Below, in pieces: positions 305 through 15,706 of a stretch of DNA of 64,000 nt (position 1 is its first letter; each line of letters opens with the position of its first letter). Where the stretch lies: NCBI GenBank assembly GCA_018653085.1, contig JABIAY010000057.1:3198-67197 (forward strand). Reading direction: 5' to 3'. The position numbers were made by a program, and so were the translations under genes. A model generated the notes under the pieces. The model was not told the origin of the DNA. It was given only the letters and a program-made list of their open reading frames with translations, and searched no databases. This DNA is from Nitrospina sp. GTDB lineage: Bacteria; Nitrospinota; Nitrospinia; Nitrospinales; VA-1.

Positions 305-452
305 AGAGTTGATGCTTTCCCGAATAAAAGCTCGTAAAAGTATGGAATAGATCAGGCTTTTCTTGTATCTTTCCTACTGAGCTTTATTAAAAGTCAAACT
401 TAGGGAGCTTTTCTTGTCTAAATGCTTGAGAGAAGAACAGGGGAGTCCCTCG

Positions 453-887
453 ATGAGCAGGCGTGCGTTTTTTATTAACGCGTTGATGGGGGTCAGCCTG
501 CTTTCCGGAATTGCCCTGATGGCTTCCTATTTTGTTCGTTTCCTTTTTCCTGTCTCCAACGTCAAAGTCAGCCGCAAACTCTATGTCGGCGATGTCCGGC
601 AGATTCCTCCCGGAAAAAGCACTTCCTTCACCGATCTCAAAGGACAAAAACTGAATATTGTCAATACCGGGGATGAGTTCATCGCGCTTTCCACCAAGTG
701 CACGCATTTGGGTTGTCAGGTGTTCTGGAAAGAGCGTGAGAGGCTGTTTTTTTGTCCCTGTCATGACGGATTTTTTGATGAAAGAGGCAATGTAGTCAAG
801 GGTCCACCGCCTGCTCCACTCACAACCTACAAGGTGGAGGTGGTGGGGCAGGGTGTCTATATTTATGTGGATGAAGTCCATGTTTAA
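453..887 (+). CDS. Rieske [2Fe-2S] subunit of a cytochrome bc-type complex, with Tat signal
   Basis: Rieske boxes CTHLGC and CPCHDG are present. The twin-arginine N-terminus MSRRAFFINALMG follows an AGGGGAG SD, so ATG 453 is preferred over the TTG at 414. The stop overlaps the cytochrome b start region. Confidence 0.9.
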   Translation: MSRRAFFINALMGVSLLSGIALMASYFVRFLFPVSNVKVSRKLYVGDVRQIPPGKSTSFTDLKGQKLNIVNTGDEFIALSTKCTHLGCQVFWKERERLFFCPCHDGFFDERGNVVKGPPPAPLTTYKVEVVGQGVYIYVDEVHV

Positions 888-1941
888 AGAACTCAAATTC
901 GCAAGGGTGGTCGATTGGGTCAAGGAAAGGTTCCCTGTTGATGTGGAGGAGATGAAATCTCTTACCAACGAACCGGTCCCCAATCATTTGAAGCATTGGT
1001 GGTTTGCGTTGGGTGGCACACCCGCCATCTTGTTTGTCATTCAAATCGTCACGGGAGTTTTTCTCTTGTTTCATTATGTTCCCACACCTGAGCAGGCTTA
1101 CGAGAGTGTGGACAAGATCACGAACGAGGTGGCGTTTGGCTGGTATGTGCGAAGCCTGCATAAATGGGCCTCGGAATTAATGATTGTGACGGTCATGTTG
1201 CATATGTCTCGTGTTTTTTTCACTGGCGCATACCGGAAACCCCGGGAACTGAACTGGATGGTAGGGGTGGTCATCTTGTTTGTCACTTTAGGACTGGCTT
1301 TTACTGGTTACTCGCTCATTTATGATCAGCTTTCTTATTGGGCGGCGATGGTGGGAACAGAAATTGCCGCAAGTACCCCGGTTGTCGGTCCGCTTGCCGC
1401 CGATTTTATCCGTGGTGGCCCGGAAGTTTCAGGAAACACTCTGACCCGGTTTTTTGCTTTACATGTAGTCATATTTCCCGCGTTGCTGATCGGGTTGGTG
1501 GTGCTTCATATTGTATTTGTCCGCTTAAACGGGGTGACTCAGTTTGAGTTTGAAGGAGAAAGAAGATCGAGGCATAGAACCTTTCCGCTTTTTCCTGACC
1601 ATGTTCTTACAGAGGCCATGCTTGCAATACTGATTTTATATCTGTTGACCATGATGTCCGTTATTTTTCCGGCGGGTTTGGGTGACAGGGCAGACCCGTT
1701 GATAACGCCGGAACATATTAAGCCGGAATGGTATTTTTTCGCGTCGTTTCGTTGGCTGAAATTGACGAATGTCTATATTGGTATAGTCGGCCAGATATTT
1801 TTTGTGGGACTCATCATTGCATGGCCGTTCATTGATAAAGTTTTCGAAAGTAAATTTCCCAGGGCGGAACTGAGTGTCTGGATCGGGTTTTTAGGTTTTA
1901 CCTTTTACCTGATTTTGACAGTTTGGGAAGCGCTGGTATGA
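853..1941 (+). CDS. Cytochrome b (fused b6 / subunit IV-type, quinol-oxidising core subunit)
   Basis: It has a typical cytochrome b N-domain (WWFALGG..., paired His in TM helices, LHKWASELM) and a C-terminal PEWYF motif. The start is ambiguous: ATG 853, 865, 871 or 880, with the last overlapping the Rieske stop as ATGTTTAA. Confidence 0.9.
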   Translation: MSIFMWMKSMFKELKFARVVDWVKERFPVDVEEMKSLTNEPVPNHLKHWWFALGGTPAILFVIQIVTGVFLLFHYVPTPEQAYESVDKITNEVAFGWYVRSLHKWASELMIVTVMLHMSRVFFTGAYRKPRELNWMVGVVILFVTLGLAFTGYSLIYDQLSYWAAMVGTEIAASTPVVGPLAADFIRGGPEVSGNTLTRFFALHVVIFPALLIGLVVLHIVFVRLNGVTQFEFEGERRSRHRTFPLFPDHVLTEAMLAILILYLLTMMSVIFPAGLGDRADPLITPEHIKPEWYFFASFRWLKLTNVYIGIVGQIFFVGLIIAWPFIDKVFESKFPRAELSVWIGFLGFTFYLILTVWEALV

Positions 1942-1981
1942 ACAATAACTGACGGGCCAGAAAGTCAGAAAGTGGGGAACC

Positions 1982-3448
1982 ATGTCTCTCAATACAAAAA
2001 AAATAGTGATCGCGGTCATCGGGCTGTTTTTTATGGGCGCCCTTTTAATTGTGGGCGGCATTGAAAGCAATAAGCGGGTATTGGGCAAAAAGGCCTATAT
2101 AAAGGTCTCAGCTACCAGTGAAAACTGTGTGGACTGCCATACCGTCACCAGCCCTTCCCTAGTAGAGCAGTGGAGAGACTCTAAACATGCCTTGAAGGGA
2201 GTGGGCTGTGTAGAGTGTCATGCCGCAGAATCTACCGATGCGGATGCCTGGGAGCATGAAGGAACTTTGGTCGCAGTGGTGGTTTCCCCTAAAGATTGCT
2301 CGAAGTGCCACGCCGATGAGAACGAACAGTTTCAGGCTTCCCACCATGCGGATGCCGGGAAAATTATTGGTTCCCTGGATAATGTTCTGGCCGAAGTGAT
2401 AGAAGGCGATATGGGTCGGCTTTCGCTGAATGGGCAGTCCCCTGTGGCCATCAACGGTTGCTGGCAATGCCACGGTTCGGTAGTTAAAATTATGGCTGAT
2501 GGACGGCCCGACCCTGCTACCTGGCCCAATACGGGTATCGGAAGGATTAACCCGGATGGCAGTAAGGGCTCCTGTTCTGCTTGCCACTCCCGGCACCGGT
2601 TTTCGGTGGTGGTCTCCCGCCAGCCGGATAGTTGCGGCAAATGTCATATGGGCCCGGATCATCCACAAAAAGAAATTTATGAGGAGTCCAAACACGGCAT
2701 TGCCTTCAAAGCATTCAAGCAGGATATGAATCTGTCTGCCCAGCCCTGGAGGGCAGGCATTGAGTATTCCGCCGCACCGACTTGCGCGACCTGCCATATG
2801 AGTGCGACGGAAGAATTGCCGGTGACTCATGATGTCGGCATGAGGATCTCCTGGAACCTGCGTCCGCCGATCTCGGAAAAAATAGATGCCAAGGCGATTA
2901 AGGCAGGGGAACAGGTCGTGTCCTGGGAGGACAGAAGGGACAATATGAAAGCGGTCTGCTCGAAGTGTCATTCGGAAAATTATGTGGACGGTTTTTATCT
3001 GCAGTTTGACTCGGCGATCAATTTATATAATGAAAAATATGGCAAGCCCGCCACAGCCATCATCAAGATGATGAAAGCGGGAGGCGTGCTGACCTCTACC
3101 AACTTTGATGAAAAGTTGGAGTGGACCTATTTTTACCTTTGGCATCACGAAGGCAGACGTGCGCGTCATGGGGCTTCCATGATGGCTCCGGACTACACGC
3201 AATGGCATGGTTTTTTTGAAGTGGCCGAGAGGTTCTACATACATTTTGTGCCTGAGGTGCGCGAAGCCTGCGAGGATAGGATCCGTCAGGGAGGGGATGT
3301 GGCCAAGGCGGCAAAAGTGGTTCTGGCGGAACTGGATTCGATCCTGAACCGTGAGGAGCATATGTGGTTCCTTGGGAAAATGACCGGAGATGAAAAGGCC
3401 CGAAGAAAAGCGGCCGCCGAAGAATTTAAAAAACGCTATGCACAGTAA
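1982..3448 (+). CDS. Octahaem cytochrome c of the hydroxylamine oxidoreductase (HAO)-like family, with N-terminal membrane anchor or signal
   Basis: There are eight CXXCH motifs: CVDCH, CVECH, CSKCH, CWQCH, CSACH, CGKCH, CATCH, CSKCH. The C-terminal region (YFYLWHHEGRRARHGASMMAPDYTQWHGFFE) is HAO-family-like. An N-terminal hydrophobic helix IVIAVIGLFFMGALLIVGG is present. The gene starts 40 nt after cytochrome b. Confidence 0.8.
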   Translation: MSLNTKKIVIAVIGLFFMGALLIVGGIESNKRVLGKKAYIKVSATSENCVDCHTVTSPSLVEQWRDSKHALKGVGCVECHAAESTDADAWEHEGTLVAVVVSPKDCSKCHADENEQFQASHHADAGKIIGSLDNVLAEVIEGDMGRLSLNGQSPVAINGCWQCHGSVVKIMADGRPDPATWPNTGIGRINPDGSKGSCSACHSRHRFSVVVSRQPDSCGKCHMGPDHPQKEIYEESKHGIAFKAFKQDMNLSAQPWRAGIEYSAAPTCATCHMSATEELPVTHDVGMRISWNLRPPISEKIDAKAIKAGEQVVSWEDRRDNMKAVCSKCHSENYVDGFYLQFDSAINLYNEKYGKPATAIIKMMKAGGVLTSTNFDEKLEWTYFYLWHHEGRRARHGASMMAPDYTQWHGFFEVAERFYIHFVPEVREACEDRIRQGGDVAKAAKVVLAELDSILNREEHMWFLGKMTGDEKARRKAAAEEFKKRYAQ

Positions 3449-3558: not shown

Positions 3559-3590
3559 AGACTTTCCAGATTCTGGAGAGTCTTTTTTTT
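3559..3590 (+). terminator. Rho-independent terminator after the Rieske/cyt b/octahaem operon
   Basis: The hairpin AGACTTTCCAGA-t-TCTGGAGAGTCT is followed by T8. Confidence 0.75.
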
Positions 3591-3742
3591 ACAAAAAATC
3601 AGGGCGTGTTTATGGAATATTTTATATCAAATAAGACCTTATAAGTAGAGCCCTGAGTTTGTTAGGGCGGTGATGGAGTCGGTTTCACCTAAGGGGTGTG
3701 ATGCCGGGCTTGTAACTCTAAAAGTTTACGGAGGTAAATGAG

Positions 3743-4999
3743 ATGAGTGAACTTCATGGCAGGAGAGGGGTGGATGGTTTTTTGGTGAAGATGTTGGCTG
3801 TGATGATTTTACTTTCGCTGGCCCTTCTTCTTGTTCCGGTAAAAGATGCCGAAGCGGTTTCGCAATGGTCGCGTAAATATAAAGTGGAATGCAGTACCTG
3901 CCATGTAGCTTTTCCCCGCTTGAATCATTTTGGTGAACAGTTTATGAAGAATGGTTTCCAGTGGCCGGGCGGACCTCCTGATGGTGATAAAGAAGGTAAA
4001 GAAGAGATTTCTGATCAATTGGTTATCGATGAGGTTGGCAACTGGTTGGGAGCCCGGTTGAGCTTGACTCCTTTAAAATTTGAGAGCAACAGCTTAACCA
4101 GAAACAATCAACTCGATGATCAGTTGACGGTGGGAAACACCAAATGGTTGCAGTTTTTTGTTGCGGGTTCCCTCTTCAAGAATGTTTCCATATTCATTGA
4201 GCAGGAGTTTACCGTTGATAGCAGTTTATTCAATTGGTATCACCTGGGGTTCCACAACCTTTATGGAACCTATGTGAACTTTCAGGTGGGGCGAATATCT
4301 CCGGTGGACTTTACTCCGCTTTCCGACCGGCTTCGTCAATGGGCCAAGTCGGATGTAATGAATGTCAATTCCTCTCCCGGAACGTCATCGAGTGAGAACG
4401 CTATCAATGTTCGAACGGATCGACCTGGTTTGCAATATTACGGTTATAAAGGGCCCTGGACCTGGTTTGCCGGGATCGACAATGGGAAGGATGCTACAGA
4501 CACAGACAGTTCTAAGAATTACTGGCTTGGGTTCAAGGCTGAACTTCCGGAGACCGCTAAAAGTGCCTTTGTCGGTAGCAGTGTCGGTTACCATTTTTAC
4601 CAGGGGACAGATAACATTAGCACCTCAACAGCACAAATCACCAACAGGTTTTACCGGCACACGTTCTCCACTAATATCCGCTACAACGAAAACCTGGATA
4701 TCCAGGCTGTTTATCAGTCCGGAAATGATGAAAACGGGACTCTTGCCGCCAGCGCAGTGGAGACTGACTTTGACGGTTTCACTATCATCGCTGGATACCG
4801 GGATTATGACTGGTGGTACATTCTGCAATATGACAATGTAAACTCCAGCGATCTTCCCGCTATTGAGAAGGACAGGATATCCCCCTCTGTCTGGTACTTT
4901 CTCAGGGACAATTTCAAGGCAGGGTTGGCGGTGAGGTTGGACCTTAATGAAAACACTGTGAACCATGAGGCGGCTTTTGAGATTCGCACCATGTTCTGA
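3743..4999 (+). CDS. Cyc2-like fused monohaem cytochrome c / outer-membrane beta-barrel porin (candidate)
   Basis: It has a GGAGG SD and a signal peptide ending AEA|VS. A single N-terminal haem motif sits in the context WSRKYKVECSTCHVAFPRLNHFGEQFMKNGF. About 370 aa of alternating beta-strand-like sequence follow, rich in G/Y/N/D turns and ending in an OMP-type C-terminal Phe (FEIRTMF). Confidence 0.6.
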   Translation: MSELHGRRGVDGFLVKMLAVMILLSLALLLVPVKDAEAVSQWSRKYKVECSTCHVAFPRLNHFGEQFMKNGFQWPGGPPDGDKEGKEEISDQLVIDEVGNWLGARLSLTPLKFESNSLTRNNQLDDQLTVGNTKWLQFFVAGSLFKNVSIFIEQEFTVDSSLFNWYHLGFHNLYGTYVNFQVGRISPVDFTPLSDRLRQWAKSDVMNVNSSPGTSSSENAINVRTDRPGLQYYGYKGPWTWFAGIDNGKDATDTDSSKNYWLGFKAELPETAKSAFVGSSVGYHFYQGTDNISTSTAQITNRFYRHTFSTNIRYNENLDIQAVYQSGNDENGTLAASAVETDFDGFTIIAGYRDYDWWYILQYDNVNSSDLPAIEKDRISPSVWYFLRDNFKAGLAVRLDLNENTVNHEAAFEIRTMF

Positions 5000-5015
5000 T
5001 TTGCAGTAGAGTTTG

Positions 5016-5052
5016 CCTCCCTTCCCCGGTCGGGGTAGGGAGGTTTTTTTTT
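5016..5052 (+). terminator. Rho-independent terminator after the Cyc2-like gene
   Basis: The hairpin CCTCCCTTCCCCGgtCGGGGTAGGGAGG is followed by T9. Confidence 0.8.
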
Positions 5053-5782
5053 AAAGGCTGTTTAAAATTTCCCGGCGTTTTTTCTCATATTCTTCTTTAC
5101 TGATCAATTCTTCCCGTTTCAACTCCTCTAAAACCTTCAGCCTCTCTTTTACGTTAGCGCCATCTTTCTGTTGGGGTTCCTTAAGCACATGTTTTGGGTT
5201 GGGATGGAAACTGGTGAACAGGACCCAATTGGTCATGTCCTGAATCAGATTTTTTTGGCGCTCATGGTTTTTATGTTTTTGCCCGCTCAAAGGAACCAAT
5301 CTCCATGAGTCTCCCGCAATGCTGAAGTCACCTATTTTACGTTTAGAGCGTTTGAGTGTTGTGATTCTCCAGTTCATTCCCTGGCTTGTTAAAAAGGTGT
5401 CCCCTTTCAGCAGGGTTTTCCCTTGACGATTTTTGATTTGGTAGATAACGCGATGATTTTTACTGGCCAGGGCGAATTGCTGTTTGATCCTGGGCGCGAG
5501 GACCTCTACATCGCTTGAGGAAAACACCCTTTTTTTCGAGGACCATGAAACTTTGCGCTCCTGATAAGCCAATGACTGCATGAATCTTTGCAGGGTCTTC
5601 AGGCTGAAAGCATAAGGTTGAATTATCTTCAGGCGGTAGTTGTTTTTTTCCTGATCCTTTAGCGGCGCAATTGCCACGGAATAGTTATGGTCAATATTTC
5701 GGGGTTGACAGAAGGCTTCAACTGCCAGAAGGGAGGACAAAAACACCAGGAATGCTACTCTGAAGAGATGAGGTTTGGGCAT
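5051..5782 (-). CDS. Secreted hypothetical protein with a C-terminal SHOCT-like short helical domain
   Basis: It has a signal peptide (MPKPHLFRVAFLVFLSSLLAVEA). The C-terminus ERLKVLEELKREELISKEEYEKKRREILNSL resembles SHOCT. It lies immediately downstream of the trihaem cytochrome on the same strand. Confidence 0.55.
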   Translation of the reverse strand: MPKPHLFRVAFLVFLSSLLAVEAFCQPRNIDHNYSVAIAPLKDQEKNNYRLKIIQPYAFSLKTLQRFMQSLAYQERKVSWSSKKRVFSSSDVEVLAPRIKQQFALASKNHRVIYQIKNRQGKTLLKGDTFLTSQGMNWRITTLKRSKRKIGDFSIAGDSWRLVPLSGQKHKNHERQKNLIQDMTNWVLFTSFHPNPKHVLKEPQQKDGANVKERLKVLEELKREELISKEEYEKKRREILNSL

Positions 5783-5801
5783 CTAGTTGTGAATAACAAA
5801 T

Positions 5802-6137
5802 TCAAGGTTTGACATGGCATTTTTTGCATGATTTCTTGACACTGAAGGCCTTTTCCCCGTCATGACAGGCTCCGCAGAACTTGCCTCTTTTCATGCTTCG
5901 TTTATTCAGGGCTTTATCCGAATCTGAACTGCCGGTTTTTTTTTGAAAAATGCTGTCATGGCAGTCTGTGCATTGATTGCCAGCCTGACTGTGTTTGTCG
6001 TGACTGAAAATAGCCGGCGCAAACTTTTTAGTATCCTTAAACCAGATGTCTCCGCCGTGCTTCTCCGCGCTGATTGCAGAAACAGGCAGGGAGAAGGCGA
6101 CTATTAATGCCAATGTTGCTGTAATGATGCGACCCAT
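5802..6137 (-). CDS. Periplasmic trihaem c7/c3-type cytochrome c
   Basis: It carries three CXXCH motifs (CTDCH, CGACH, CKKCH) in the pattern FSHDKH...C..CH...CGACHDG.KAF....C..CH. A signal peptide MGRIITATLALIVAFSLPVSAISA is present. The ATG at 6137 follows a GAGGGAAG SD and is preferred over 6182. Confidence 0.8.
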   Translation of the reverse strand: MGRIITATLALIVAFSLPVSAISAEKHGGDIWFKDTKKFAPAIFSHDKHSQAGNQCTDCHDSIFQKKTGSSDSDKALNKRSMKRGKFCGACHDGEKAFSVKKSCKKCHVKP

Positions 6138-6372
6138 AGTTTCTTCCCTCTTCTCTTGACTAAACGGCAATCTACTCTTCATTCAACTCATTTTAGCATA
6201 GCCCCAAATGGAAAACCGAAAAGGCCTGTCTTAGCGACAACTGTTTAGTTGTAAAAAATATTTACATTATTCTCGGTTTGGTAAAAAATAGTTGGCAAAA
6301 ATCTGCCGGGCATTTAGGGCACTCATCTTGTAACACTTTATAAATTAGTGAGTTAATGTTTTGATGGTGTTT

Positions 6373-6388: not shown

Positions 6389-6552
6389 AATACCAATGCT
6401 TAAGGGCAAGGCATTGATACTTTGCCAGGATATGGAGAAGAAAGAGTGGGTTTTCCTATTTAAGGAATCGAAGTTACTGGGTTGCGCGTTTTGTTCCTCT
6501 GGGAATAGATTAGGTTATAATGCAAAACTTCTCATTTTTTGGAGTTTTACAG

Positions 6553-7659
6553 ATGCTTTTTGAGTTTGAAGATTCAACATTGAAACCTGTTTTTGAAAAA
6601 GTGAAGGCAGGGCTCCGCCTTTCCTATGAGGATGGAGTCACCCTTTGGCAAACTCCTGATTTGCTGGGTGTGGGGTATATGGCCAATCTGGTGCGGGAAA
6701 GGTTGAACGGGGACAAAACCTATTTTATTCACAACCGGCATATCAATCCGACTAATATTTGTATTCACAGTTGTCAGTTTTGTGCTTTTGGAGTCAAGGC
6801 GGATCACCCTGATGCTTATGAAAAGTCATTGCAGGATATTTTTTCGGATGCGGAGAAATATAATGGTGGAGACGTCAGTGAATTTCATATCGTGGGTGGA
6901 CTGCATCCGGACCTTCCGTTTGGATATTATCTCGAACTGCTGGAAGGATTAAAAGAACGCTTCCCGTTGGTTCATATACAGGCGTTTACAGCTGTGGAGG
7001 TGGAATACTTTTCCCATCTGGCGAAGCTTCCTCTAAAAGACACGCTGGAAAAATTAAAGCAGGCTGGTTTGGGTTCTATCCCAGGCGGCGGTGCGGAGAT
7101 TTTTGCCAAACGGGTGCGTCGAAAAATTTGCGGCGAGAAGATCGATGGCGAAGGTTGGTTGCGGGTTCATGAAACGGCCCATCTTGCCGGACTAAAAAGC
7201 AATGCCACTATGCTTTATGGACATTTGGAAACCGCAGAAGAAAGATCGGACCATCTGGTGCGCCTGCGTGAATTGCAGGACCGGACTCATGGTTTTGTGA
7301 CATTTATTCCGTTAGCGTTTCACCCGGAAAACACCGTGTTAGATTTTTTAAAAACTACACCGGGGCAATTGGATCTCAGGGCGCTAGCGGTTTCAAGATT
7401 GATGCTGGATAATTTTCCACATATGAAAGCATTCTGGATCATGATCACACCTAAAATAGCCCAGTTGGCCCAGTCTTTTGGGGCGGATGATATGGATGGA
7501 ACGGTTGTCGAAGAGAAGATCGTTCATGCCGCCGGTGCGGCCACAGATCAGGTTTTTCATAAGGATCAAATCATTCACATGATTACACAGTCTGGAAGAA
7601 AGCCTGTAGAGCGAGATACTTTGTATGAAAACGTTGAGGAATTGGAGGGGGCATATTAG
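6553..7659 (+). CDS. Radical SAM menaquinone-biosynthesis enzyme of the futalosine pathway (MqnE/MqnC family, aminofutalosine-synthase-like)
   Basis: It has the CIHSCQFCAF radical-SAM cluster motif in the context YFIHNRHINPTNIC, followed by FHIVGGLHPDLPFGYYLELL. ATG 6553 with a TGGAG SD is preferred. A TATAAT box at 6514-6519 would exclude ATG 6520. Confidence 0.75.
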   Translation: MLFEFEDSTLKPVFEKVKAGLRLSYEDGVTLWQTPDLLGVGYMANLVRERLNGDKTYFIHNRHINPTNICIHSCQFCAFGVKADHPDAYEKSLQDIFSDAEKYNGGDVSEFHIVGGLHPDLPFGYYLELLEGLKERFPLVHIQAFTAVEVEYFSHLAKLPLKDTLEKLKQAGLGSIPGGGAEIFAKRVRRKICGEKIDGEGWLRVHETAHLAGLKSNATMLYGHLETAEERSDHLVRLRELQDRTHGFVTFIPLAFHPENTVLDFLKTTPGQLDLRALAVSRLMLDNFPHMKAFWIMITPKIAQLAQSFGADDMDGTVVEEKIVHAAGAATDQVFHKDQIIHMITQSGRKPVERDTLYENVEELEGAY

Positions 7660-8321: not shown

Positions 8322-8840
8322 ATGGCAACAATTAATTTCAGCGATGGGAAAATGCCGAGTGTGTTGACGGATGTGAGCCGGGACTCGATACTGTCCATAT
8401 TCAACACAATTTTCGGAGCGGAGCCCAAGTTTGAAGGTGGCGAGAATGGGAAAAGTCTCGGGGATGGAGTGGTGGGAATCATTTCGTTCATGGGGGATGT
8501 GAACTATATCATCATGCTGGCTCTTCCCAAAGATTCGGCAATTGCCATGGCTTCCAAGTTTTGTGGTTTTGACATAGATTATGACAGCCCTGATATGGGG
8601 GATGTGGTTGGAGAACTGGCAAATGTTTTAGCCGGGGATATTGTTGCCAGGATGTCCAAGGAAGATTTTAAAGTAACCATGTCATTGCCAACGATCATGC
8701 GTGGTCACGATGTAGAACCCTTGCTACCCAGAGGCCTGCCTTTAGAGAAGCTCAGCTTTTCAATGGCAGAGGGACATTTCATGCTGAAGGTGGCTGGAGC
8801 TAAATCGGGGGAACTGGTTGGTAGAAAGCCGGGAAGTTGA
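8322..8840 (+). CDS. cheX: CheY-P phosphatase of the CheX/CheC family
   Basis: The D-x3-E-x2-N active-site motif is present (GDVVGELANVLAG). Size is about 170 aa, and the gene lies between cheY and cheA. Confidence 0.75.
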   Translation: MATINFSDGKMPSVLTDVSRDSILSIFNTIFGAEPKFEGGENGKSLGDGVVGIISFMGDVNYIIMLALPKDSAIAMASKFCGFDIDYDSPDMGDVVGELANVLAGDIVARMSKEDFKVTMSLPTIMRGHDVEPLLPRGLPLEKLSFSMAEGHFMLKVAGAKSGELVGRKPGS

Positions 8841-8921
8841 GTTTTTCCCAAGAGAAAATTAGTGCTGAATTAGGGTTCCCCTTTTGAATTATTAAAAGCC
8901 TGTCGAACTGAGGTCATATAA

Positions 8922-11762
8922 ATGAACGATTCAAATAAAGAAGAACCGGTTGCTCCTGACCCGACTGATGGTAGCGAATCAGATCAGGGTGACGGAATGG
9001 GTGAAATCGTCAATGAGTTCCTGGTCGAAAGCTATGAAAACCTGGACCAGTTGGACCAAGATCTGGTTGATTTGGAGCAGGACCCTGGTGACATAAACAT
9101 TCTCTCCAGCATTTTCAGGACCATCCATACCATAAAAGGCACCTGTGGCTTCATCGGTTTCAACAAACTGGAATCTGTGGCGCATATTGGTGAAAACCTG
9201 TTGGGGAAGTTGCGGGATGGCGAACTGAAATTGAGTCCCGCCCGAACCAGTGCTCTTCTGGCTATGGTGGATGCCATTCGTCAGATGCTTTCCTGCATCG
9301 AAAATGATCAAAATGAAGGCAGTGTGGATTATTCCGGTCTGGTTGAAACTTTGACCCGGTTGCAAACGGATGATGGAGCGGCCGAGGCAGTTCCCCCTGT
9401 TGCGGAAACGAAGGAAGAAGTTGCTGTCGAAACGAAACAGGAAGAACCGGCTCCTGAACCTGTCAAGCCTTCTGCTGAAATTGACGAGGATATGGAACCT
9501 ATCGTCAACGAGTTTCTGGTAGAGAGTTATGAGAATCTGGATCGCCTTGATAAAGACCTCATTGAACTGGAGCAGGACCCCGGCAATACAGAAATCCTTT
9601 CCAGCATTTTCAGGACCATCCATACCATAAAAGGTACCTGCGGTTTTATTGGCTTGCACAAACTGGAAAGAGTTGCCCATGTTGGAGAAAACCTGTTGGG
9701 TAAACTTCGGGATGGTGATCTGGCTTTGAATCCTCCAAGAACCAGTGCCCTGTTGGCAATGGTGGATGCTATCCGGCAAATGCTGGACTGTATTGAGAAG
9801 GATCGTGACGAAGGGGATGTGGACTATTCAAAACTGGTGGATACCCTGGGTAAACTGCTGACCGATGCAGGTTGTGCCGAAGTGGCAACTTCCGCACCTG
9901 CTTCCAAGCCTGCGGAAGAGAAAAAAGAAGAGCCCAAAAAATTCGTTGCCGCAGAGGATAAAAAGGATCGCAGGAAGGCTCCTTCGGCGGAAGAGGCAGA
10001 ACATATAGCCAAGAATGGAGACAAACGCGCTACTACAGACCGGCGTAAAGAAACCCGGGGTGTGGCGGATTCCAGCATTCGTGTGGATGTGGATATCCTC
10101 GATCGGCTGATGAATCTTGTTGGGGAACTGGTTCTGGCTAGAAACCAGATACTGCAATATGCTCCCGCCAAGAGCGACTCTTCGTTTATTGCAACCAGCC
10201 AGCATTTGAACCTGGTTACTACGGAATTGCAGGAAGGTGTCATGAAAACCCGGATGCAACCCATTGGCAATATCTGGAGCAAGTTTCCCCGTGTTGTTCG
10301 GGATCTTTCCATGGCCGTTGGTAAAAAGATTCGCCTGGAGATGGAAGGCAAGGAGACGGAACTGGACAAGACGCTGATCGAAGCGATCAAAGATCCTCTG
10401 ACACATATTGTCAGGAACTCCTGCGACCATGGAATAGAATCTCCCGAAAAACGTTTGGAAAATGGCAAGGATGAAGAGGGTGTTTTGTTATTGCGCGCTT
10501 TCCACGAGGGAGGACAGGTCAATATTGAGATCATTGATGATGGTGGCGGGATTGATCCTGAGAAAATTAAAAAGATAGCTCTTAGTAAAAATGTTATCAC
10601 GCAGGAACAGGCGGACAGAATGGGTGATCAGGAACTGGTCAACCTTATTTTTGCCGCCGGATTTTCTACTGCCGAAAAGGTGACCAATGTGTCCGGACGG
10701 GGCGTGGGCATGGATGTGGTTCGTACCAATATTGAGAAAATTGGTGGAACCGTAGTTATTAATAGCTTTCCCGGAAAAGGCACGACCTTGCGAGTCAAGA
10801 TTCCTCTTACTCTGGCAATCATTCCGGCTCTGATTATCACCACTGCCGGGGAACGTTACGCCATTCCGCAGGTGAACCTGCTTGAACTGGTTCGTCTTGA
10901 CGGGGAGGAGGCCAAGAAGTCTGTTGAACAGATTCAGGGTGCTCCGGTTTATCGCTTGCGCGGTAACCTGCTTCCTTTGGTTTCCCTCAATGATGCGTTG
11001 AAGATAGAAGAGGAAGAAGAAAGCGAGGCTATTAATATCGTTGTTCTGCATGCAGACGACCGCCAGTTTGGTCTGGTGGTTGAAGGAATCAGCGATACCG
11101 AGGAAATTGTGGTCAAGCCGCTGAGTAAACAGCTCAAAGGTATCTCCGCATTTTCAGGGGCAACCATAATGGGGGATGGAAAACTGGCATTGATTCTAGA
11201 TGTCATGGGGCTTGCCCAAAAATCCAGCGTTATTTCCGGTCATCAGGATAAGAGTCTCGCCAAAGCGGCATCAGCCCAGGGAGACGCAGGTGATCGTCAA
11301 ACCCTGCTCATCTTTGGTCTGGAGGCAGATGATCGCATGGCGATACCGTTGTCTGAGGTTGCACGTCTGGAAGAATTTAAACGCTCAGAAGTTGAGCAAT
11401 CGGGTGAACAGGATGTGGTGCAGTATCGTGGAGAAATTATGCCTCTGGTTTACCTTAAAAAGGTTCTGCATGGAGATTCCCAGCAGGAAGATTCCCCACA
11501 GGAAGATGCTGATACGGAATTGATGCAGTCTATTGTTTTCACCAAGGATGGCAGGAGCGTTGGGCTGGTCGTTGAGCGCATCGTCGATATTGTGGAAGAA
11601 TCGGTAACGGTTAAACGCGGGGCCAACCGCCCTGGGGTACTGGGAACCATTGTTGTGCAAGATCGGGTGACCGACCTTCTTGACATTGAAAGTGTGGTTG
11701 CATCTGCCGACCCTAGTTTCCTGGTTGATACACAAAGTGTTGCATTATTAGAGGAGGCTTGA
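8922..11762 (+). CDS. cheA: Chemotaxis histidine kinase CheA with two Hpt (P1) domains and two C-terminal CheW-like domains
   Basis: Two near-identical Hpt domains each carry FRTIHTIKGTCGF. They are followed by a dimerisation region, an HATPase_c domain (DDGGGID, GRGVGMD) and two CheW-like modules (ERYAIPQVNLLELV... and DRMAIPLSEVARLEEF...). Confidence 0.95.
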   Translation: MNDSNKEEPVAPDPTDGSESDQGDGMGEIVNEFLVESYENLDQLDQDLVDLEQDPGDINILSSIFRTIHTIKGTCGFIGFNKLESVAHIGENLLGKLRDGELKLSPARTSALLAMVDAIRQMLSCIENDQNEGSVDYSGLVETLTRLQTDDGAAEAVPPVAETKEEVAVETKQEEPAPEPVKPSAEIDEDMEPIVNEFLVESYENLDRLDKDLIELEQDPGNTEILSSIFRTIHTIKGTCGFIGLHKLERVAHVGENLLGKLRDGDLALNPPRTSALLAMVDAIRQMLDCIEKDRDEGDVDYSKLVDTLGKLLTDAGCAEVATSAPASKPAEEKKEEPKKFVAAEDKKDRRKAPSAEEAEHIAKNGDKRATTDRRKETRGVADSSIRVDVDILDRLMNLVGELVLARNQILQYAPAKSDSSFIATSQHLNLVTTELQEGVMKTRMQPIGNIWSKFPRVVRDLSMAVGKKIRLEMEGKETELDKTLIEAIKDPLTHIVRNSCDHGIESPEKRLENGKDEEGVLLLRAFHEGGQVNIEIIDDGGGIDPEKIKKIALSKNVITQEQADRMGDQELVNLIFAAGFSTAEKVTNVSGRGVGMDVVRTNIEKIGGTVVINSFPGKGTTLRVKIPLTLAIIPALIITTAGERYAIPQVNLLELVRLDGEEAKKSVEQIQGAPVYRLRGNLLPLVSLNDALKIEEEEESEAINIVVLHADDRQFGLVVEGISDTEEIVVKPLSKQLKGISAFSGATIMGDGKLALILDVMGLAQKSSVISGHQDKSLAKAASAQGDAGDRQTLLIFGLEADDRMAIPLSEVARLEEFKRSEVEQSGEQDVVQYRGEIMPLVYLKKVLHGDSQQEDSPQEDADTELMQSIVFTKDGRSVGLVVERIVDIVEESVTVKRGANRPGVLGTIVVQDRVTDLLDIESVVASADPSFLVDTQSVALLEEA

Positions 11763-11763
11763 C

Positions 11764-12204
11764 ATGACTGAGCAAAAACAATTTTGTACTTTCTATCTCG
11801 ACAACCATATGTTTGGGGTGAAAGTTGAACAGGTTCAGGAGGTTTTTCGTTACCAGGCGATGACTAAAGTTCCTCTGGCACCTCCCGAAGTGCGTGGGCT
11901 GATCAATCTGCGTGGTCAAATTATCACGGCCCTTGATCTAAGGCGGCGGTTAGGTATGGAAGTCCGGTCTGAAGACAAGTTGCCCATGAATGTGGTGGTG
12001 AGAACGGAAGATGGGGTAGTGAGTCTTCTGGTTGATGAAATCGGAGATGTGCTGGAAGTGTCCGAAGATGTTCATGAACGACCGCCTGAAACCGTCCCTG
12101 AAGGGGTAAGGAAACTGGTGCTGGGTGTCTATAAATTGGAAGGCAAGTTGCTGTTGATTTTGGATTCTGAAAAAGCAGTGGATGTTGGTCACGCAGTAGC
12201 CTGA
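11764..12204 (+). CDS. cheW: Chemotaxis coupling protein CheW
   Basis: It has a CheW-like domain (FCTFYLDNHMFGVKVEQVQEV...GLINLRGQIITALDLRRRLG). The start lies 2 nt after the cheA stop. Confidence 0.9.
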   Translation: MTEQKQFCTFYLDNHMFGVKVEQVQEVFRYQAMTKVPLAPPEVRGLINLRGQIITALDLRRRLGMEVRSEDKLPMNVVVRTEDGVVSLLVDEIGDVLEVSEDVHERPPETVPEGVRKLVLGVYKLEGKLLLILDSEKAVDVGHAVA

Positions 12205-12213
12205 ACCCAACGG

Positions 12214-13305
12214 TTATATCCGCCCCACTTTCAATTTTGCGATGATTTTTTGCCCAACCTGGTTGAGCGGCAGAACTTCATCTGCCAGACCAGCCCGAGC
12301 GACAAAGCCGGGCATTCCCCATACCACGCTACTTTGTTCGTCCTGAACAATCACCTGGCCTCCTGCCTGCTTGATTTGTTCACAGCCTCTAAGGCCGTCC
12401 TGACCCATCCCTGTCAAAATAACCGCTAAGGTTTTGGCACCATAAATTTCCACGACAGATCGAAATAAAGGATCTACCGCAGGCCGGCAGGAATTTTCCT
12501 GAGGGTCCTGATTCGTTTGCAGATAAACCCCAGCTCCCTTTTTTTCAAGAACCATATGGTAGTCTCCCGGCGCGATCCAGGCTTTTCCCGGCTCGAGTTT
12601 TTCACCGGCTTTTCCTTCCTGAACTTCCAGCGGAGATTTCGCTGTCAGTCGTTCTGCAAGGAGCTTGGTGAAAAAGGGTGGCATATGTTGCACCAGAACT
12701 ATTGGCACAGGCAGATCACCCGGAAGAGTAGGGAAGAGCTCTGCCAGGGCATTGGGTCCGCCAGTGGAAACGCCGATTGCGAGAATATCGAATTTCTGGT
12801 TCGGGGACGCTTTGGCAAAAGAGGGTTTTACGGTTGGGGTGCCTGCTTTAGCGGCAGGTTTTGGAACGATAACCGATGAAGTTTGCAACCCCGCTTTTTT
12901 CGCACAAAATATTTTGATCTTGGGGATCAGTTCGTCTCGTATCCTTTGCATGGCAACCGATACGCTTCCCACATTTGCGGGTTTGGTGACATAATCCGTA
13001 GCCCCAAGAGCTAAAGCTTCCAAAGTTTTTGCCCCACCCCTCTCCGTAAGGGTGCTGAACATAATGATGGGTAAGGTGGGGTAGAGTTTTCGCGCTTCGG
13101 CGAGGGTTTCAAGCCCATCCATTTCTGGCATTTCAATATCCAGAGTCAGGATGTCGGGATTGATTTGTGGGATCTTTTGTAAGGCGATTTTACCGTTGGC
13201 GGCGGTAGCCACTACTTCAATATCAGGGTCGCCACTTAGCGTGTCGGTAACAATTTTCCTGACAACTACCGCATCGTCAACAACGAGTACCCTGATTTTT
13301 CGCAT
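12214..13305 (-). CDS. cheB: Chemotaxis protein-glutamate methylesterase CheB (receiver + methylesterase)
   Basis: It has an N-terminal receiver domain (IRVLVVDDAVVVR, DILTLDIEMPEMDG) and a CheB catalytic domain (AIGVSTGGPNAL, HMPPFFT, GMGQDG). It is convergent with cheW. Confidence 0.95.
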   Translation of the reverse strand: MRKIRVLVVDDAVVVRKIVTDTLSGDPDIEVVATAANGKIALQKIPQINPDILTLDIEMPEMDGLETLAEARKLYPTLPIIMFSTLTERGGAKTLEALALGATDYVTKPANVGSVSVAMQRIRDELIPKIKIFCAKKAGLQTSSVIVPKPAAKAGTPTVKPSFAKASPNQKFDILAIGVSTGGPNALAELFPTLPGDLPVPIVLVQHMPPFFTKLLAERLTAKSPLEVQEGKAGEKLEPGKAWIAPGDYHMVLEKKGAGVYLQTNQDPQENSCRPAVDPLFRSVVEIYGAKTLAVILTGMGQDGLRGCEQIKQAGGQVIVQDEQSSVVWGMPGFVARAGLADEVLPLNQVGQKIIAKLKVGRI

Positions 13306-15687: not shown

Positions 15688-15706
15688 AAAAAAATCAGTA
15701 TCGGGT

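What the first reader, a model, noticed from the sequence alone, without database searches (positions are those of the whole stretch)
3743..4999. Stand-alone gene with the architecture of a Cyc2 fused cytochrome-porin
The sequence shows a cleavable signal (…VKDAEA|VS) and a single haem-binding motif about 10 residues into the mature protein. The motif sits in the context WSRKYKVECSTCHVAFPRLNHFGEQFMKNGF. No other Cys pair is present. About 370 residues of amphipathic beta-strand/turn sequence follow, ending with the beta-signal-like FEIRTMF. From memory, the motif context ([FW][AS]R..…C..CH…FP.LN.FG..F…G[YF]) matches the conserved N-terminus of Cyc2-family proteins. If correct, this organism would carry a marker gene for outer-membrane Fe(II) oxidation or other extracellular electron exchange.
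Basis: partly seen in the sequence, partly recalled or inferred. Interest (0 to 1): 0.75.

Follow-up and report, generated by a model that had tools for sequence, protein, structure and literature searches.

The report
Divergent Cyc2-type fused cytochrome-porin gene

Summary
The ORF at 3743-4999 (+) exists as described. It encodes 418 aa with a signal peptide ending AEA|VS, one CSTCH, only two Cys, and a C-terminal RTMF.

- **Haem motif:** it is not chance. All 114 homologues that include the N-terminal region have exactly one CXXCH.
- **Fold:** the AlphaFold2 model (pLDDT 86) has 16 long strands and matches 16-strand porins, including OprP and OprO, as published for Cyc2.
- **Homology:** a family profile runs without a break into proteins carrying the canonical Cyc2 signature. 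It hits 120 of 120 such proteins from named genomes. An HMM built only from canonical proteins scores the target at 163-178 bits, and the barrel and N-terminus also score separately.
- **Strict motif:** AXPXFAR[Q/K][T/Y] is not met (the target has A-V-S-Q-W-S-R-K-Y). The gene belongs to a distinct clade that the published motif filter would drop.
- **Cluster placement:** unresolved.
- **Context:** the gene is monocistronic and sits between a Rieske/cytochrome b/octahaem operon and a trihaem c7 gene. Distant clade members form operons with cytochrome c and NapC/NirT-type genes.

Most likely role: an electron conduit across the outer membrane, with Fe(II) oxidation the leading guess. Cyc2-like genes in Nitrospinota were already reported in 2019, 2022 and 2025. 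Interest is modest.

The parts
3559..3593 (+). Intrinsic terminator after the upstream octahaem gene. It isolates the target as its own transcription unit.
   Evidence: 11-bp stem with 5 G-C pairs, followed by a T-run.
3730..3734 (+). Shine-Dalgarno GGAGG, 8 nt before the ATG.
   Evidence: Read directly from the sequence.
3743..4999 (+). CDS for a 418-aa Cyc2-type fused monohaem cytochrome-porin (divergent clade).
3743..3856 (+). Signal peptide, aa 1-38. It has a basic n-region (R7, R8, K16), a hydrophobic core at aa 17-33, and A at -3 and -1 (AEA|V).
   Evidence: Sequence. The AF2 model has a helix at 12-29 and low pLDDT at 32-38. A38 is at least 90% conserved. No dedicated signal-peptide predictor was available.
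3854..3958 (+). Cytochrome signature segment, aa 38-72: A-V-S-Q-W-S-R-K-Y-x3-CSTCH-x3-P-R-L-N-x-F-G-x2-F-x-N-G-F.
   Evidence: This is the most conserved part of the family. On its own it scores 71-73 bits against HMMs built from canonical Cyc2-type proteins.
3890..3904 (+). CSTCH haem c attachment motif (C50, C53, H54).
   Evidence: Invariant. Present exactly once in 114 of 114 homologues that include the N-terminal region.
3914..3922 (+). P58-R59-L60, the PXL motif starting 4 residues after H54.
   Evidence: Sequence. R59 is invariant, and P58 and L60 are at least 90% conserved. The criterion comes from PMC8406198.
3959..4042 (+). Gly/Pro/acidic linker plus a short hairpin, aa 73-100.
   Evidence: pLDDT is about 59-76. 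Short strands at 86-90 and 93-96.
4043..4996 (+). 16-strand beta-barrel porin domain, aa 101-418. A 41-residue loop lies between strands 5 and 6, in the position of the L3 loop of general porins.
   Evidence: DSSP gives 16 long strands. Foldseek finds OmpU, OmpF, PorB, OprP (2o4v) and OprO (4rjw) at E 5e-14 to 4e-9. The barrel alone scores 84-96 bits against canonical Cyc2-type HMMs.
4985..4996 (+). C-terminal R-T-M-F, the clade-specific end of the last strand. It has a terminal Phe (beta-signal-like) and an invariant Met417.
   Evidence: M417 invariant. (R-x-M-[FIL] in 49 of 51 clade members and 0 of 167 P-x-F proteins).
5015..5052 (.). Hairpin plus U-run terminator, shared with the convergent downstream gene.
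   Evidence: MFE -23.6 kcal/mol, z=-3.78, 0 of 200 shuffles fold as well.
414..3448 (+). Context, probable electron-transfer partners: a Rieske (414-887), cytochrome b (853-1941) and membrane-anchored 8-haem HAO-like cytochrome (1982-3448) operon.
   Evidence: The same neighbourhood is present beside P0002, P0004 and P0064.
5051..6182 (-). Context: a conserved convergent pair, a secreted 243-aa protein of unknown function with a weak SHOCT-like tail (5051-5782) and a secreted 3-haem c7-type cytochrome (5802-6182).
   Evidence: The pair is conserved in L001 and L125, at 45-49% and 53-66% identity.

Best explanation
The gene encodes an outer-membrane c-type monohaem cytochrome fused to a 16-strand porin. 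It is a divergent clade of the Cyc2 superfamily. The inferred mechanism runs as follows. The protein is exported by Sec and cleaved after A38. The cytochrome c maturation system attaches haem to C50 and C53, with H54 as the proximal ligand. The barrel is inserted in the outer membrane with the short N-terminal haem segment held in or at the pore. A dissolved reductant that enters the pore, most likely Fe2+, reduces the haem. The electron then passes to periplasmic cytochromes. Candidates in this genome are the adjacent trihaem c7 and the octahaem protein. From there it goes to the Rieske/cytochrome b complex or a terminal oxidase. Shown here: the architecture, the invariance of the haem motif, homology of both halves to canonical Cyc2-type proteins, the porin fold, and linkage to respiratory genes. 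Inferred only: haem incorporation, localisation, the substrate, and the direction of electron flow. My confidence that it is a Cyc2-superfamily cytochrome-porin is about 0.93. The figure below is for the whole statement, including Fe(II) as the substrate.
For: The ORF, the motif and the two-Cys count are. Exactly one CXXCH occurs in 114 of 114 homologues that include the N-terminal region. The AF2 model has pLDDT 86, pTM 0.83 and 16 long strands. Foldseek matches 16-strand porins including OprP and OprO, the same structural relatives published for Cyc2 (PMC8406198). The exhaustive profile search found 3,390 cluster representatives at E<=1e-3. Full-length hits carrying A-x-P-x-F-A-R-K-Y-x3-CxxCH had whole-library E-values of 1e-51 to 1e-23. 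The profile hit 120 of 120 canonical-motif proteins from named genomes at 36-199 bits, including Ca. Nitrospira defluvii at 184 bits and Mariprofundus at 69 bits. hhalign against a Zetaproteobacteria family gave probability 98.4%, E=8e-15, 356 columns and 19% identity. That identity is within the published 17-23% between Cyc2 clusters. The reverse HMM scored the whole protein at 163-178 bits, the barrel at 84-96 and the N-terminus at 71-73, against at most 8.3 for shuffles. Context: a Rieske/cyt b/multihaem cluster and a c7 gene lie next to the gene in the window and beside three relatives. Distant clade members show a recurring operon: Cyc2-like, monohaem cyt c, membrane-anchored NapC/NirT-type cytochrome, small membrane protein. 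It is complete in L126 and L128, interrupted by the Rieske/cyt b/multihaem genes in L004, and only partly present in L127. Fe(II) oxidation has been shown biochemically for one Cyc2 in each of the three published clusters (PMC8406198).
Against: The strict family signature AXPXFAR[Q/K][T/Y] is not met (P to S, F to W, A to S). There is no experimental datum for any member of this clade. Its closest canonical relatives are Nitrospirales proteins, which are Cluster 3 according to bioRxiv 10.1101/2024.12.25.630300. That cluster's function is called the most uncertain, and it also holds the proposed Mn(II)-oxidising Cyc2. The named relatives come from lineages not known to oxidise iron: Nitrospinae, Aminicenantes, Marinimicrobia and Arcobacter. 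NapC/NirT-type partners are classically quinol oxidases that send electrons outward. Two of ten contexts examined showed no redox neighbours. The position of the haem segment relative to the barrel could not be checked, because no model coordinates were available.
Confidence: 0.55

Rival explanations
1. The architecture is the same, but the physiological substrate is Mn(II) or another soluble metal. This has been proposed for the Cyc2 of Candidatus Manganitrophus.
For: Cyc2 is a core, expressed candidate Mn(II) oxidase in Ca. Manganitrophaceae (PMC9040806). That protein and the Nitrospira Cyc2 proteins both fall in Cluster 3. The Nitrospirales proteins are the target clade's closest canonical relatives.
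Against: Mn(II) oxidation by any Cyc2 is itself unproven. Mn(II)/Mn(III) chemistry needs a much higher haem potential. Nothing in the window points to Mn.
Confidence: 0.1
2. The protein is an outer-membrane conduit that runs outward or in both directions. Electrons would go from the quinol pool, through Rieske/cyt b or NapC/NirT and periplasmic cytochromes, to an extracellular acceptor. Alternatively it takes up electrons from donors other than Fe2+, such as cathodes or redox shuttles.
For: In distant clade members the gene lies in an operon with a monohaem cytochrome c and a membrane-anchored 3-4-haem NapC/NirT-type protein. That family typically oxidises quinol. A Cyc2 homologue is also found in the electrode-oxidising Ca. 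Tenderia.
Against: A single haem inside a narrow porin is thought to react only with dissolved species (PMC8406198, PMC9040806). All characterised Cyc2 proteins act as oxidases of an external donor.
Confidence: 0.15
3. The role is non-respiratory. The haem-bearing porin might serve iron acquisition (reducing or oxidising iron at the pore), redox sensing, or detoxification rather than energy conservation.
For: Several carriers are presumed heterotrophs or nitrite oxidisers. Some copies have no redox neighbours. One copy lies about 1.7-2.7 kb upstream of an Rrf2 regulator gene and a ferritin gene.
Against: In eight of the ten contexts examined there is a cytochrome gene within two genes. In seven there is a Rieske/cyt b or NapC/NirT module that interacts with quinones. 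That argues for a respiratory link.
Confidence: 0.1
4. It is an ordinary diffusion porin whose CXXCH is fortuitous.
For: The top PDB fold matches are plain porins. No Pfam or NCBIfam cytochrome model matches.
Against: CXXCH is invariant and single in 114 of 114 homologues. The N-terminal 85 residues alone score 71-73 bits against canonical Cyc2-type HMMs. The flanking motif is the most conserved part of the protein.
Confidence: 0.01

Closest known systems
Cyc2 of Nitrospirales (for example Ca. Nitrospira defluvii, FP929003, locus L011), assigned to Cyc2 Cluster 3 in bioRxiv 10.1101/2024.12.25.630300
   Same: Signal peptide, a single CXXCH with the same spacings (R-K-Y-x3-C, H-x3-P-x-L-N), and the G-E-x-F-x-x-N-G-Y-Q continuation. 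The barrel is homologous over its full length. These are the best-scoring canonical group, at 157-199 bits, and lie near the target clade in the NJ tree.
   Different: They carry the canonical A-I-P-A-F-A-R-K-Y, are longer (450-482 aa), and lack the R-x-M-F C-terminus. Their function is also unknown.
Cyc2 of Mariprofundus ferrooxydans PV-1 (AKN78226, Cluster 1), the biochemically validated neutrophilic Fe(II) oxidase (Keffer et al. 2021, PMC8406198)
   Same: The published architecture matches: signal peptide, one haem, PXL, at least 365 aa, and a 16-strand porin resembling OprO/OprP.
   Different: I could not retrieve its sequence for direct comparison. The Zetaproteobacteria protein I did compare (SPV1_10541/EAU55163 and relatives) is a different paralogue. 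The target fails the P-x-F-A part of the signature.
Cyc2 of Acidithiobacillus ferrooxidans (Cluster 2) and Cyt572 of Leptospirillum (Cluster 3), the acidophile Fe(II) oxidases
   Same: The same fused cytochrome-porin concept. A Leptospirillum fragment (L099) is recognised by the target-family profile at 37 bits over 130 aa.
   Different: Their hosts are acidophiles. They are very distant, since identity between clusters is only 17-23%. No direct comparison with the A. ferrooxidans protein was possible.
Cyc2 of Candidatus Manganitrophus noduliformans (proposed Mn(II) oxidase)
   Same: A fused monohaem cytochrome-porin in a lineage related to nitrite oxidisers. It is Cluster 3, like the Nitrospirales proteins.
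   Different: The proposed substrate is Mn(II). It is not verified biochemically, and I made no direct sequence comparison.
Porin-cytochrome complexes MtoAB/MtrAB/PCC
   Same: They also move electrons across the outer membrane through a beta-barrel.
   Different: In those systems a separate multihaem (10-12 haem) cytochrome is threaded through a larger separate porin. Here one haem and a 16-strand barrel lie on a single polypeptide.
General and phosphate-selective 16-strand porins (OmpF, OmpU, PorB, OprP, OprO)
   Same: The barrel fold matches, with Foldseek E down to 5e-14 and target-normalised TM up to 0.71.
   Different: They have no N-terminal haem segment and only 10-17% identity. No sequence-level PDB match was found.

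Membership tests
Cyc2 fused cytochrome-porin (criteria of Keffer et al. 2021, PMC8406198, and FeGenie) | N-terminal signal peptide (outer-membrane targeting) | tested here: met
   Basic n-region, hydrophobic core at aa 17-33, and A-E-A|V obeying the -3/-1 rule. AF2 gives a helix at 12-29 followed by a disordered stretch at 32-38. A38 is at least 90% conserved. No SignalP-type tool was available.
Cyc2 fused cytochrome-porin (criteria of Keffer et al. 2021, PMC8406198, and FeGenie) | A single CXXCH haem-binding motif near the N-terminus | tested here: met
   CSTCH at aa 50-54, with only two Cys in the protein. It is invariant, and exactly one copy occurs in 114 of 114 homologues.
Cyc2 fused cytochrome-porin (criteria of Keffer et al. 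2021, PMC8406198, and FeGenie) | AXPXFAR[Q/K][T/Y] (screened as PXFAR[Q/K][T/Y]) just upstream of CXXCH | tested here: not met
   The target reads A38-V-S-Q-W-S-R-K-Y46. A, R, K and Y match. P is replaced by S, F by W, and A by S. The register and spacing (Y-x3-C) are the same as in canonical proteins. The whole clade has [S/A/T]-Q-[W/F/Y] at this position.
Cyc2 fused cytochrome-porin (criteria of Keffer et al. 2021, PMC8406198, and FeGenie) | PXL motif 4 residues downstream of CXXCH | tested here: met
   H54-V-A-F-P58-R59-L60. R59 is invariant, and P58 and L60 are at least 90% conserved.
Cyc2 fused cytochrome-porin (criteria of Keffer et al. 2021, PMC8406198, and FeGenie) | Length of at least 365 aa | tested here: met
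   418 aa.
Cyc2 fused cytochrome-porin (criteria of Keffer et al. 2021, PMC8406198, and FeGenie) | C-terminal 16-strand beta-barrel porin resembling OprO/OprP | tested here: met
   The AF2 model has pLDDT 86 and 16 long DSSP strands between aa 102 and 417. Foldseek finds 16-strand porins including 2o4v (OprP) and 4rjw (OprO).
Cyc2 fused cytochrome-porin (criteria of Keffer et al. 2021, PMC8406198, and FeGenie) | Sequence homology to recognised Cyc2 proteins (HMM match) | tested here: met
   Tested by proxy. HMMs built here from 97 full-length proteins that meet all the published sequence criteria scored the target at 163-178 bits, against at most 8.3 for shuffles. The forward profile hit 120 of 120. 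hhalign gave 98.4%. The FeGenie HMMs themselves could not be run.
Cyc2 fused cytochrome-porin (criteria of Keffer et al. 2021, PMC8406198, and FeGenie) | Placement inside Cluster 1, 2 or 3 of the reference phylogeny | tested here: inconclusive
   No labelled cluster references could be retrieved. In my NJ tree the clade (55 sequences, bootstrap 71/100) sits beside an intermediate-motif group and then the Nitrospirales proteins. Those are Cluster 3. However, PMC9769843 placed Cyc2 homologues from Nitrospinota and DTB120 in Cluster I. I cannot tell whether those are the same clade.
Cyc2 fused cytochrome-porin (criteria of Keffer et al. 2021, PMC8406198, and FeGenie) | Covalent haem, outer-membrane location and Fe(II)-oxidising activity | not testable with these tools
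   This needs expression with the ccm genes, fractionation, and an Fe(II) reduction assay as in PMC8406198.
Ordinary 16-strand diffusion porins (OmpF/OprP type) | Barrel without a prosthetic group or a conserved N-terminal cytochrome segment | tested here: not met
   The invariant CXXCH segment is the most conserved part of the protein. No Pfam porin model matches.
Porin-cytochrome complexes (MtoAB/MtrAB/PCC) | A separate multihaem cytochrome plus a larger separate porin | tested here: not met
   One haem motif and one polypeptide with about 16 strands.

The most novel reading that the evidence does not exclude
The clade marked by [S/A]-Q-[W/F] at the N-terminus and R-x-M-F at the C-terminus could be a functionally distinct lineage of fused cytochrome-porins. 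The altered haem pocket, possibly with the invariant Met417 as distal ligand, might shift the redox potential and the substrate away from the Fe2+ used by classical Cyc2. That would give relatives of nitrite-oxidising Nitrospinota and several heterotrophic phyla an unrecognised route for extracellular electron exchange. The route would be wired either to a Rieske/cytochrome b-octahaem complex or to a dedicated cytochrome c plus NapC/NirT module.
Probability: 0.15. Interest if true: 0.65.

Novelty: new variant of a known kind. Interest (0 to 1): 0.35.

Why it matters
Cyc2 is the most widely used genetic marker for neutrophilic Fe(II) oxidation. This gene shows that a well-populated clade has the complete Cyc2 architecture and clear homology to it. 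The first search found 133 clusters at 90% identity, and 55 of the 229 sequences in my tree belong to the clade. Its named members come from Nitrospinae, Aminicenantes, Thermodesulfobacteriota, Marinimicrobia, Nitrospirae, Bacteroidetes and others. Yet the clade carries a shifted signature that the motif filter used for the reference phylogeny would remove. Surveys that rely on that motif therefore under-count the family, while surveys that rely on HMMs will call these genes iron oxidases without any functional support. If the protein does oxidise Fe(II) or Mn(II), relatives of marine nitrite oxidisers would have an extra lithotrophic option. The conserved links to Rieske/cytochrome b and to cytochrome c plus NapC/NirT modules give concrete partners to test. 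It does not change the picture of how such proteins work.

Tried and rejected
- **Family libraries.** Pfam and NCBIfam scans of the target found nothing. No Cyc2 model exists in either library.
- **Solved structures.** The PDB sequence search found nothing meaningful.
- **Reference sequences.** The supplements of Keffer 2021 hold no sequences, only an identity table and a figure legend.
- **Source names.** Looking up source names for ten canonical-motif representatives gave almost nothing. The one useful result was a Gallionellales MAG protein. Searching with that protein reached only a tiny subfamily and no reference Cyc2.
- **Mariprofundus route.** The Mariprofundus protein found by the genome pattern scan led to SPV1_10541 of strain PV-1. 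I rejected it as the validated Cyc2 of PV-1. The accession differs from AKN78226. Its 59% identity to Ghiorsea proteins also does not fit the published 38.9% between PV-1 and TAG-1. It is probably the second Zetaproteobacteria paralogue. The locus tag appears in no searchable paper.
- **Cluster placement.** Placement by proxy gave conflicting signals.
- **Model coordinates.** They are not exposed. Barrel closure, the position of the haem segment, and the distance from Met417 to His54 could not be examined.
- **Variant motif in the literature.** A search for the motif strings found nothing relevant.
- **Chance explanation.** I considered and rejected a chance CXXCH in an ordinary porin.
Full report
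**Observation.** The ORF is real. It runs 3743..4999 on the + strand, starts at an ATG and encodes 418 aa. A GGAGG lies 8 nt upstream. There is a signal-peptide-like N-terminus ending ...VKDAEA|VS. The single CSTCH is at aa 50-54 (nt 3890-3904), with no other cysteines. The C-terminus reads ...FEIRTMF. A strong terminator follows the upstream gene (3559-3583 plus a T-run). A -23.6 kcal/mol hairpin with a U-run follows the stop codon (5015-5052; z=-3.8). The gene is therefore its own transcription unit.

**Is the haem motif more than chance?** Yes. The first database search found 133 homologues at 37-100% identity, none with a functional name. Of the 120 listed, all 114 that include the N-terminal region have exactly one CXXCH. 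The six without it are truncated gene calls, and three of those start at the internal Met right after the motif. In a 43-sequence alignment C50, C53, H54, F57 and R59 are invariant. The stretch S-Q-W-[AS]-R-K-Y-x3-CxxCH-x3-P-R-L-N-x-[FY]-G-E-x-F-x-x-N-G-[FY]-Q is the most conserved part of the protein.

**Fold.** AlphaFold2 with this alignment gave a confident model (pLDDT 86.1, pTM 0.83). It shows a signal-peptide helix, a short structured haem segment and a low-confidence acidic/Gly-Pro linker. Sixteen long beta strands then run from residue 102 to 417, with a 41-residue loop between strands 5 and 6. Foldseek against the PDB returned 16-strand porins: OmpU, OmpF, PorB, OprP (2o4v) and OprO (4rjw), at E 5e-14 to 4e-9. 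OprO and OprP are the structural relatives published for Cyc2 (PMC8406198). Closure of the barrel and the position of the haem segment are therefore inferred, not seen.

**Is it Cyc2?** Pfam, NCBIfam and the PDB sequence search gave nothing. Keffer et al. 2021 define the family by six features: a signal peptide, one CXXCH, an AXPXFAR[Q/K][T/Y] motif upstream, PXL four residues downstream, at least 365 aa, and a 16-strand porin. The target meets all of these except the upstream motif. There it reads A-V-S-Q-W-S-R-K-Y, in the same register and with the same Y-x3-C spacing.

Four tests of homology all point the same way:

- **Exhaustive profile search.** The family profile, searched against 1.84 billion cluster representatives, found 3,390 proteins at E<=1e-3 and 1,006 at E<=1e-10. 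Below the close relatives, the list passes without a break into full-length proteins with the canonical A-x-P-x-F-A-R-K-Y-x3-CxxCH-x3-P-x-L-N-x-F-G. Their whole-library E-values are 1e-51 to 1e-23.
- **Named genomes.** They include Mariprofundus and Zetaproteobacteria MAGs, Leptospirillum, Chlorobiaceae, Ca. Nitrospira defluvii, Ignavibacterium album, Brocadiales and a Nitrospinaceae MAG. The target-family profile recognised all 120 at 36-199 bits. Nitrospirales scored 157-199 and Mariprofundus 69.
- **Profile-profile comparison.** Against a Zetaproteobacteria family that includes M. ferrooxydans PV-1 SPV1_10541, hhalign gave 98.4% probability, E=8e-15, 356 aligned columns and 19% identity. 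The published identity between Cyc2 clusters is 17-23%.
- **Reverse test.** HMMs built only from canonical-motif proteins scored the target at 163-178 bits, its barrel alone at 84-96 and its first 85 residues alone at 71-73. The best of 200 shuffles scored 8.3.

Both halves are thus homologous to Cyc2-type proteins. The protein is a member of the superfamily, but it falls outside the motif-defined family.

**Position in the family.** I built a neighbour-joining tree of 229 full-length sequences. All proteins with [S/A/T]-Q-[W/F/Y] in place of P-x-F form one clade of 55, with bootstrap 71/100. When the tree is rooted on the Zetaproteobacteria group, the next branches outward are a 13-member group with intermediate motifs and then the canonical Nitrospirales clade. 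The intermediate motifs are A-T-A-A-F-A-R-K-Y, A-T-P-A-F-A-R-S-T and A-V-P-A-F-A-R-V-N, and that group includes a Gallionellales MAG protein. The clade also has its own C-terminal signature. R-x-M-[FIL] occurs in 49 of 51 clade members and in 0 of 167 P-x-F proteins, and Met417 is the only invariant Met.

Cluster assignment is unresolved. Nitrospira Cyc2 proteins are Cluster 3 according to bioRxiv 10.1101/2024.12.25.630300. A Southwest Indian Ridge study, however, placed Cyc2 homologues from Nitrospinota and DTB120 in Cluster I (PMC9769843). I cannot tell whether those belong to this clade. The tree is rough: it is NJ, has no labelled references, and its root is arbitrary.

**Context.** The window is ordinary chromosome, with AlaRS, PolA, citrate synthase, DnaB, SecA, one tRNA-Arg and a chemotaxis cluster.

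- **In the window.** Upstream on the same strand lie Rieske (414-887), cytochrome b (853-1941) and a membrane-anchored 8-haem HAO-like cytochrome (1982-3448). Downstream and convergent lie a secreted 243-aa protein of unknown function and a secreted 3-haem c7 cytochrome.
- **In close relatives.** The same neighbourhood is kept beside homologues of 79%, 61% and 52% identity. The last is in a Nitrospinaceae MAG.
- **In distant clade members.** The gene heads a recurring operon: Cyc2-like, monohaem cytochrome c, membrane-anchored NapC/NirT-type 3-4-haem protein, small membrane protein. The operon is complete in L126 and L128. In L004 the Rieske/cyt b/multihaem genes sit between the Cyc2-like gene and the NapC/NirT-type gene. 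L127 shows only the cytochrome c.
- **No redox neighbours.** Two copies, labelled Aminicenantes and Arcobacter, stand among unrelated genes.

In seven of ten contexts the gene is linked to an inner-membrane module that interacts with quinones. That fits a conduit joining the outer membrane to the respiratory chain.

**Mechanism and rivals.** The best-supported reading is a Cyc2-type conduit. Haem c is attached at C50/C53 with H54 as ligand at the very start of the mature protein, and is held in or at a 16-strand pore. It would be reduced by a dissolved donor, most likely Fe2+. It would then pass electrons to periplasmic cytochromes and on to the Rieske/cytochrome b complex or an oxidase. Architecture, homology and linkage are shown here. 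Haem loading, location, substrate and direction are inferred.

The rivals are Mn(II) as substrate, as proposed for Ca. Manganitrophus Cyc2; outward or otherwise different extracellular electron transfer, suggested by the NapC/NirT partners; a non-respiratory role; and an ordinary porin with a chance CXXCH. The conservation data exclude the last.

**Novelty.** The protein type has been known since the A. ferrooxidans work and was defined in detail in 2020-2021. Cyc2 homologues have been reported in a Nitrospinae bin (PMC6850669), in Nitrospinota MAGs (PMC9769843) and in Nitrospinaceae MAGs (PMC11995701). What I did not find described is the clade's shifted signature. The PXFAR[Q/K][T/Y] screen used for the 1,593-sequence reference tree would remove it. 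At least one Nitrospinaceae MAG also carries a canonical-motif copy (L019). The earlier reports may therefore refer to either type. I rate this a new variant of a known kind, of modest interest.

Noticed in passing
window 414-3448 (+): There is an operon of Rieske protein, cytochrome b and a membrane-anchored 8-haem HAO-like cytochrome. The cytochrome's best NCBIfam hit is hydrazine dehydrogenase at 75 bits, far below the 900-bit cut-off. From my own knowledge, this resembles the Rieske/cyt b complexes with octahaem subunits known from anammox bacteria. The operon is conserved next to the Cyc2-like gene in P0002's contig.
   Followed up: partly
window 5051-5782 (-) and 5802-6182 (-): A conserved convergent gene pair lies here. 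One gene encodes a secreted 243-aa protein with no family match except a weak C-terminal SHOCT-like tail. The other encodes a secreted 3-haem c7-type cytochrome. Both recur next to the Cyc2-like gene in L001 and L125, at 45-49% and 53-66% identity.
   Followed up: partly
L004 5440-11159; L126 6001-8523; L128 6001-8609; L127 6001-7680: Distant clade members show a recurring operon: Cyc2-like, monohaem cytochrome c, membrane-anchored NapC/NirT-type 3-4-haem protein, small membrane protein. It is complete in L126 and L128. In L004 the Rieske/cyt b/multihaem genes interrupt it. L127 shows only the monohaem cytochrome c. The monohaem cytochrome has a shared P-D-L-S-x-V-G motif and hits Pfam PF00034 in L004 and only weakly in L128. 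The operon would make a complete route from the outer to the inner membrane.
   Followed up: partly
window 4985-4996 (aa 415-418) versus 3854-3880 (aa 38-46): The clade-specific N-terminal motif [S/A/T]-Q-[W/F/Y] co-occurs with a clade-specific C-terminal R-x-M-[F/I/L] (49 of 51, against 0 of 167). Met417 is the only invariant Met. It could be the distal haem ligand or a contact between the haem segment and the last strand. The association is confounded by shared ancestry, and it could not be tested without model coordinates.
   Followed up: partly
proteins P0067, P0069, P0072 (homologues): Three homologues were called from the internal Met of F-M-R-N-G just after the haem motif. As deposited they therefore lack the CXXCH and would be read as plain porins. 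This is an annotation artefact that hides family members.
   Followed up: no
L019 1573-1617 (Nitrospinaceae MAG OFTM6, JAJDBE010000023): This Nitrospinaceae MAG carries a canonical-motif Cyc2 (A-I-P-L-F-A-R-K-Y). The family therefore holds both the canonical and the divergent type. Published 'cyc2-like' calls in Nitrospinaceae may refer to either.
   Followed up: no
P0304 = SPV1_10541 / EAU55163.1, Mariprofundus ferrooxydans PV-1: This protein has the full Cyc2 architecture (canonical motif, 483 aa) and is conserved at 55-90% identity across Mariprofundaceae and Ghiorsea. UniRef labels it 'probable cytochrome c1 protein'. It is not the validated Cyc2 of PV-1 (AKN78226) and is probably the second Zetaproteobacteria paralogue.
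   Followed up: partly
window 6520-7659 (+): A radical-SAM CofH/MqnC-like gene, probably for futalosine-route menaquinone synthesis, lies just beyond the c7 gene. It is also present at the same place in P0002's contig.
   Followed up: no
window 8322-13305: A chemotaxis cluster (CheX, CheA with tandem Hpt, CheW, CheB) lies close to the respiratory genes. The same arrangement is present in P0002's contig.
   Followed up: no
window 14584-15789 (-): This 401-aa ORF (TTG start) has no Pfam match at E<=1e-5. It overlaps the start of the neighbouring MscS-type channel gene by about 80 nt. It may be a mis-called start or an unknown protein.
   Followed up: no
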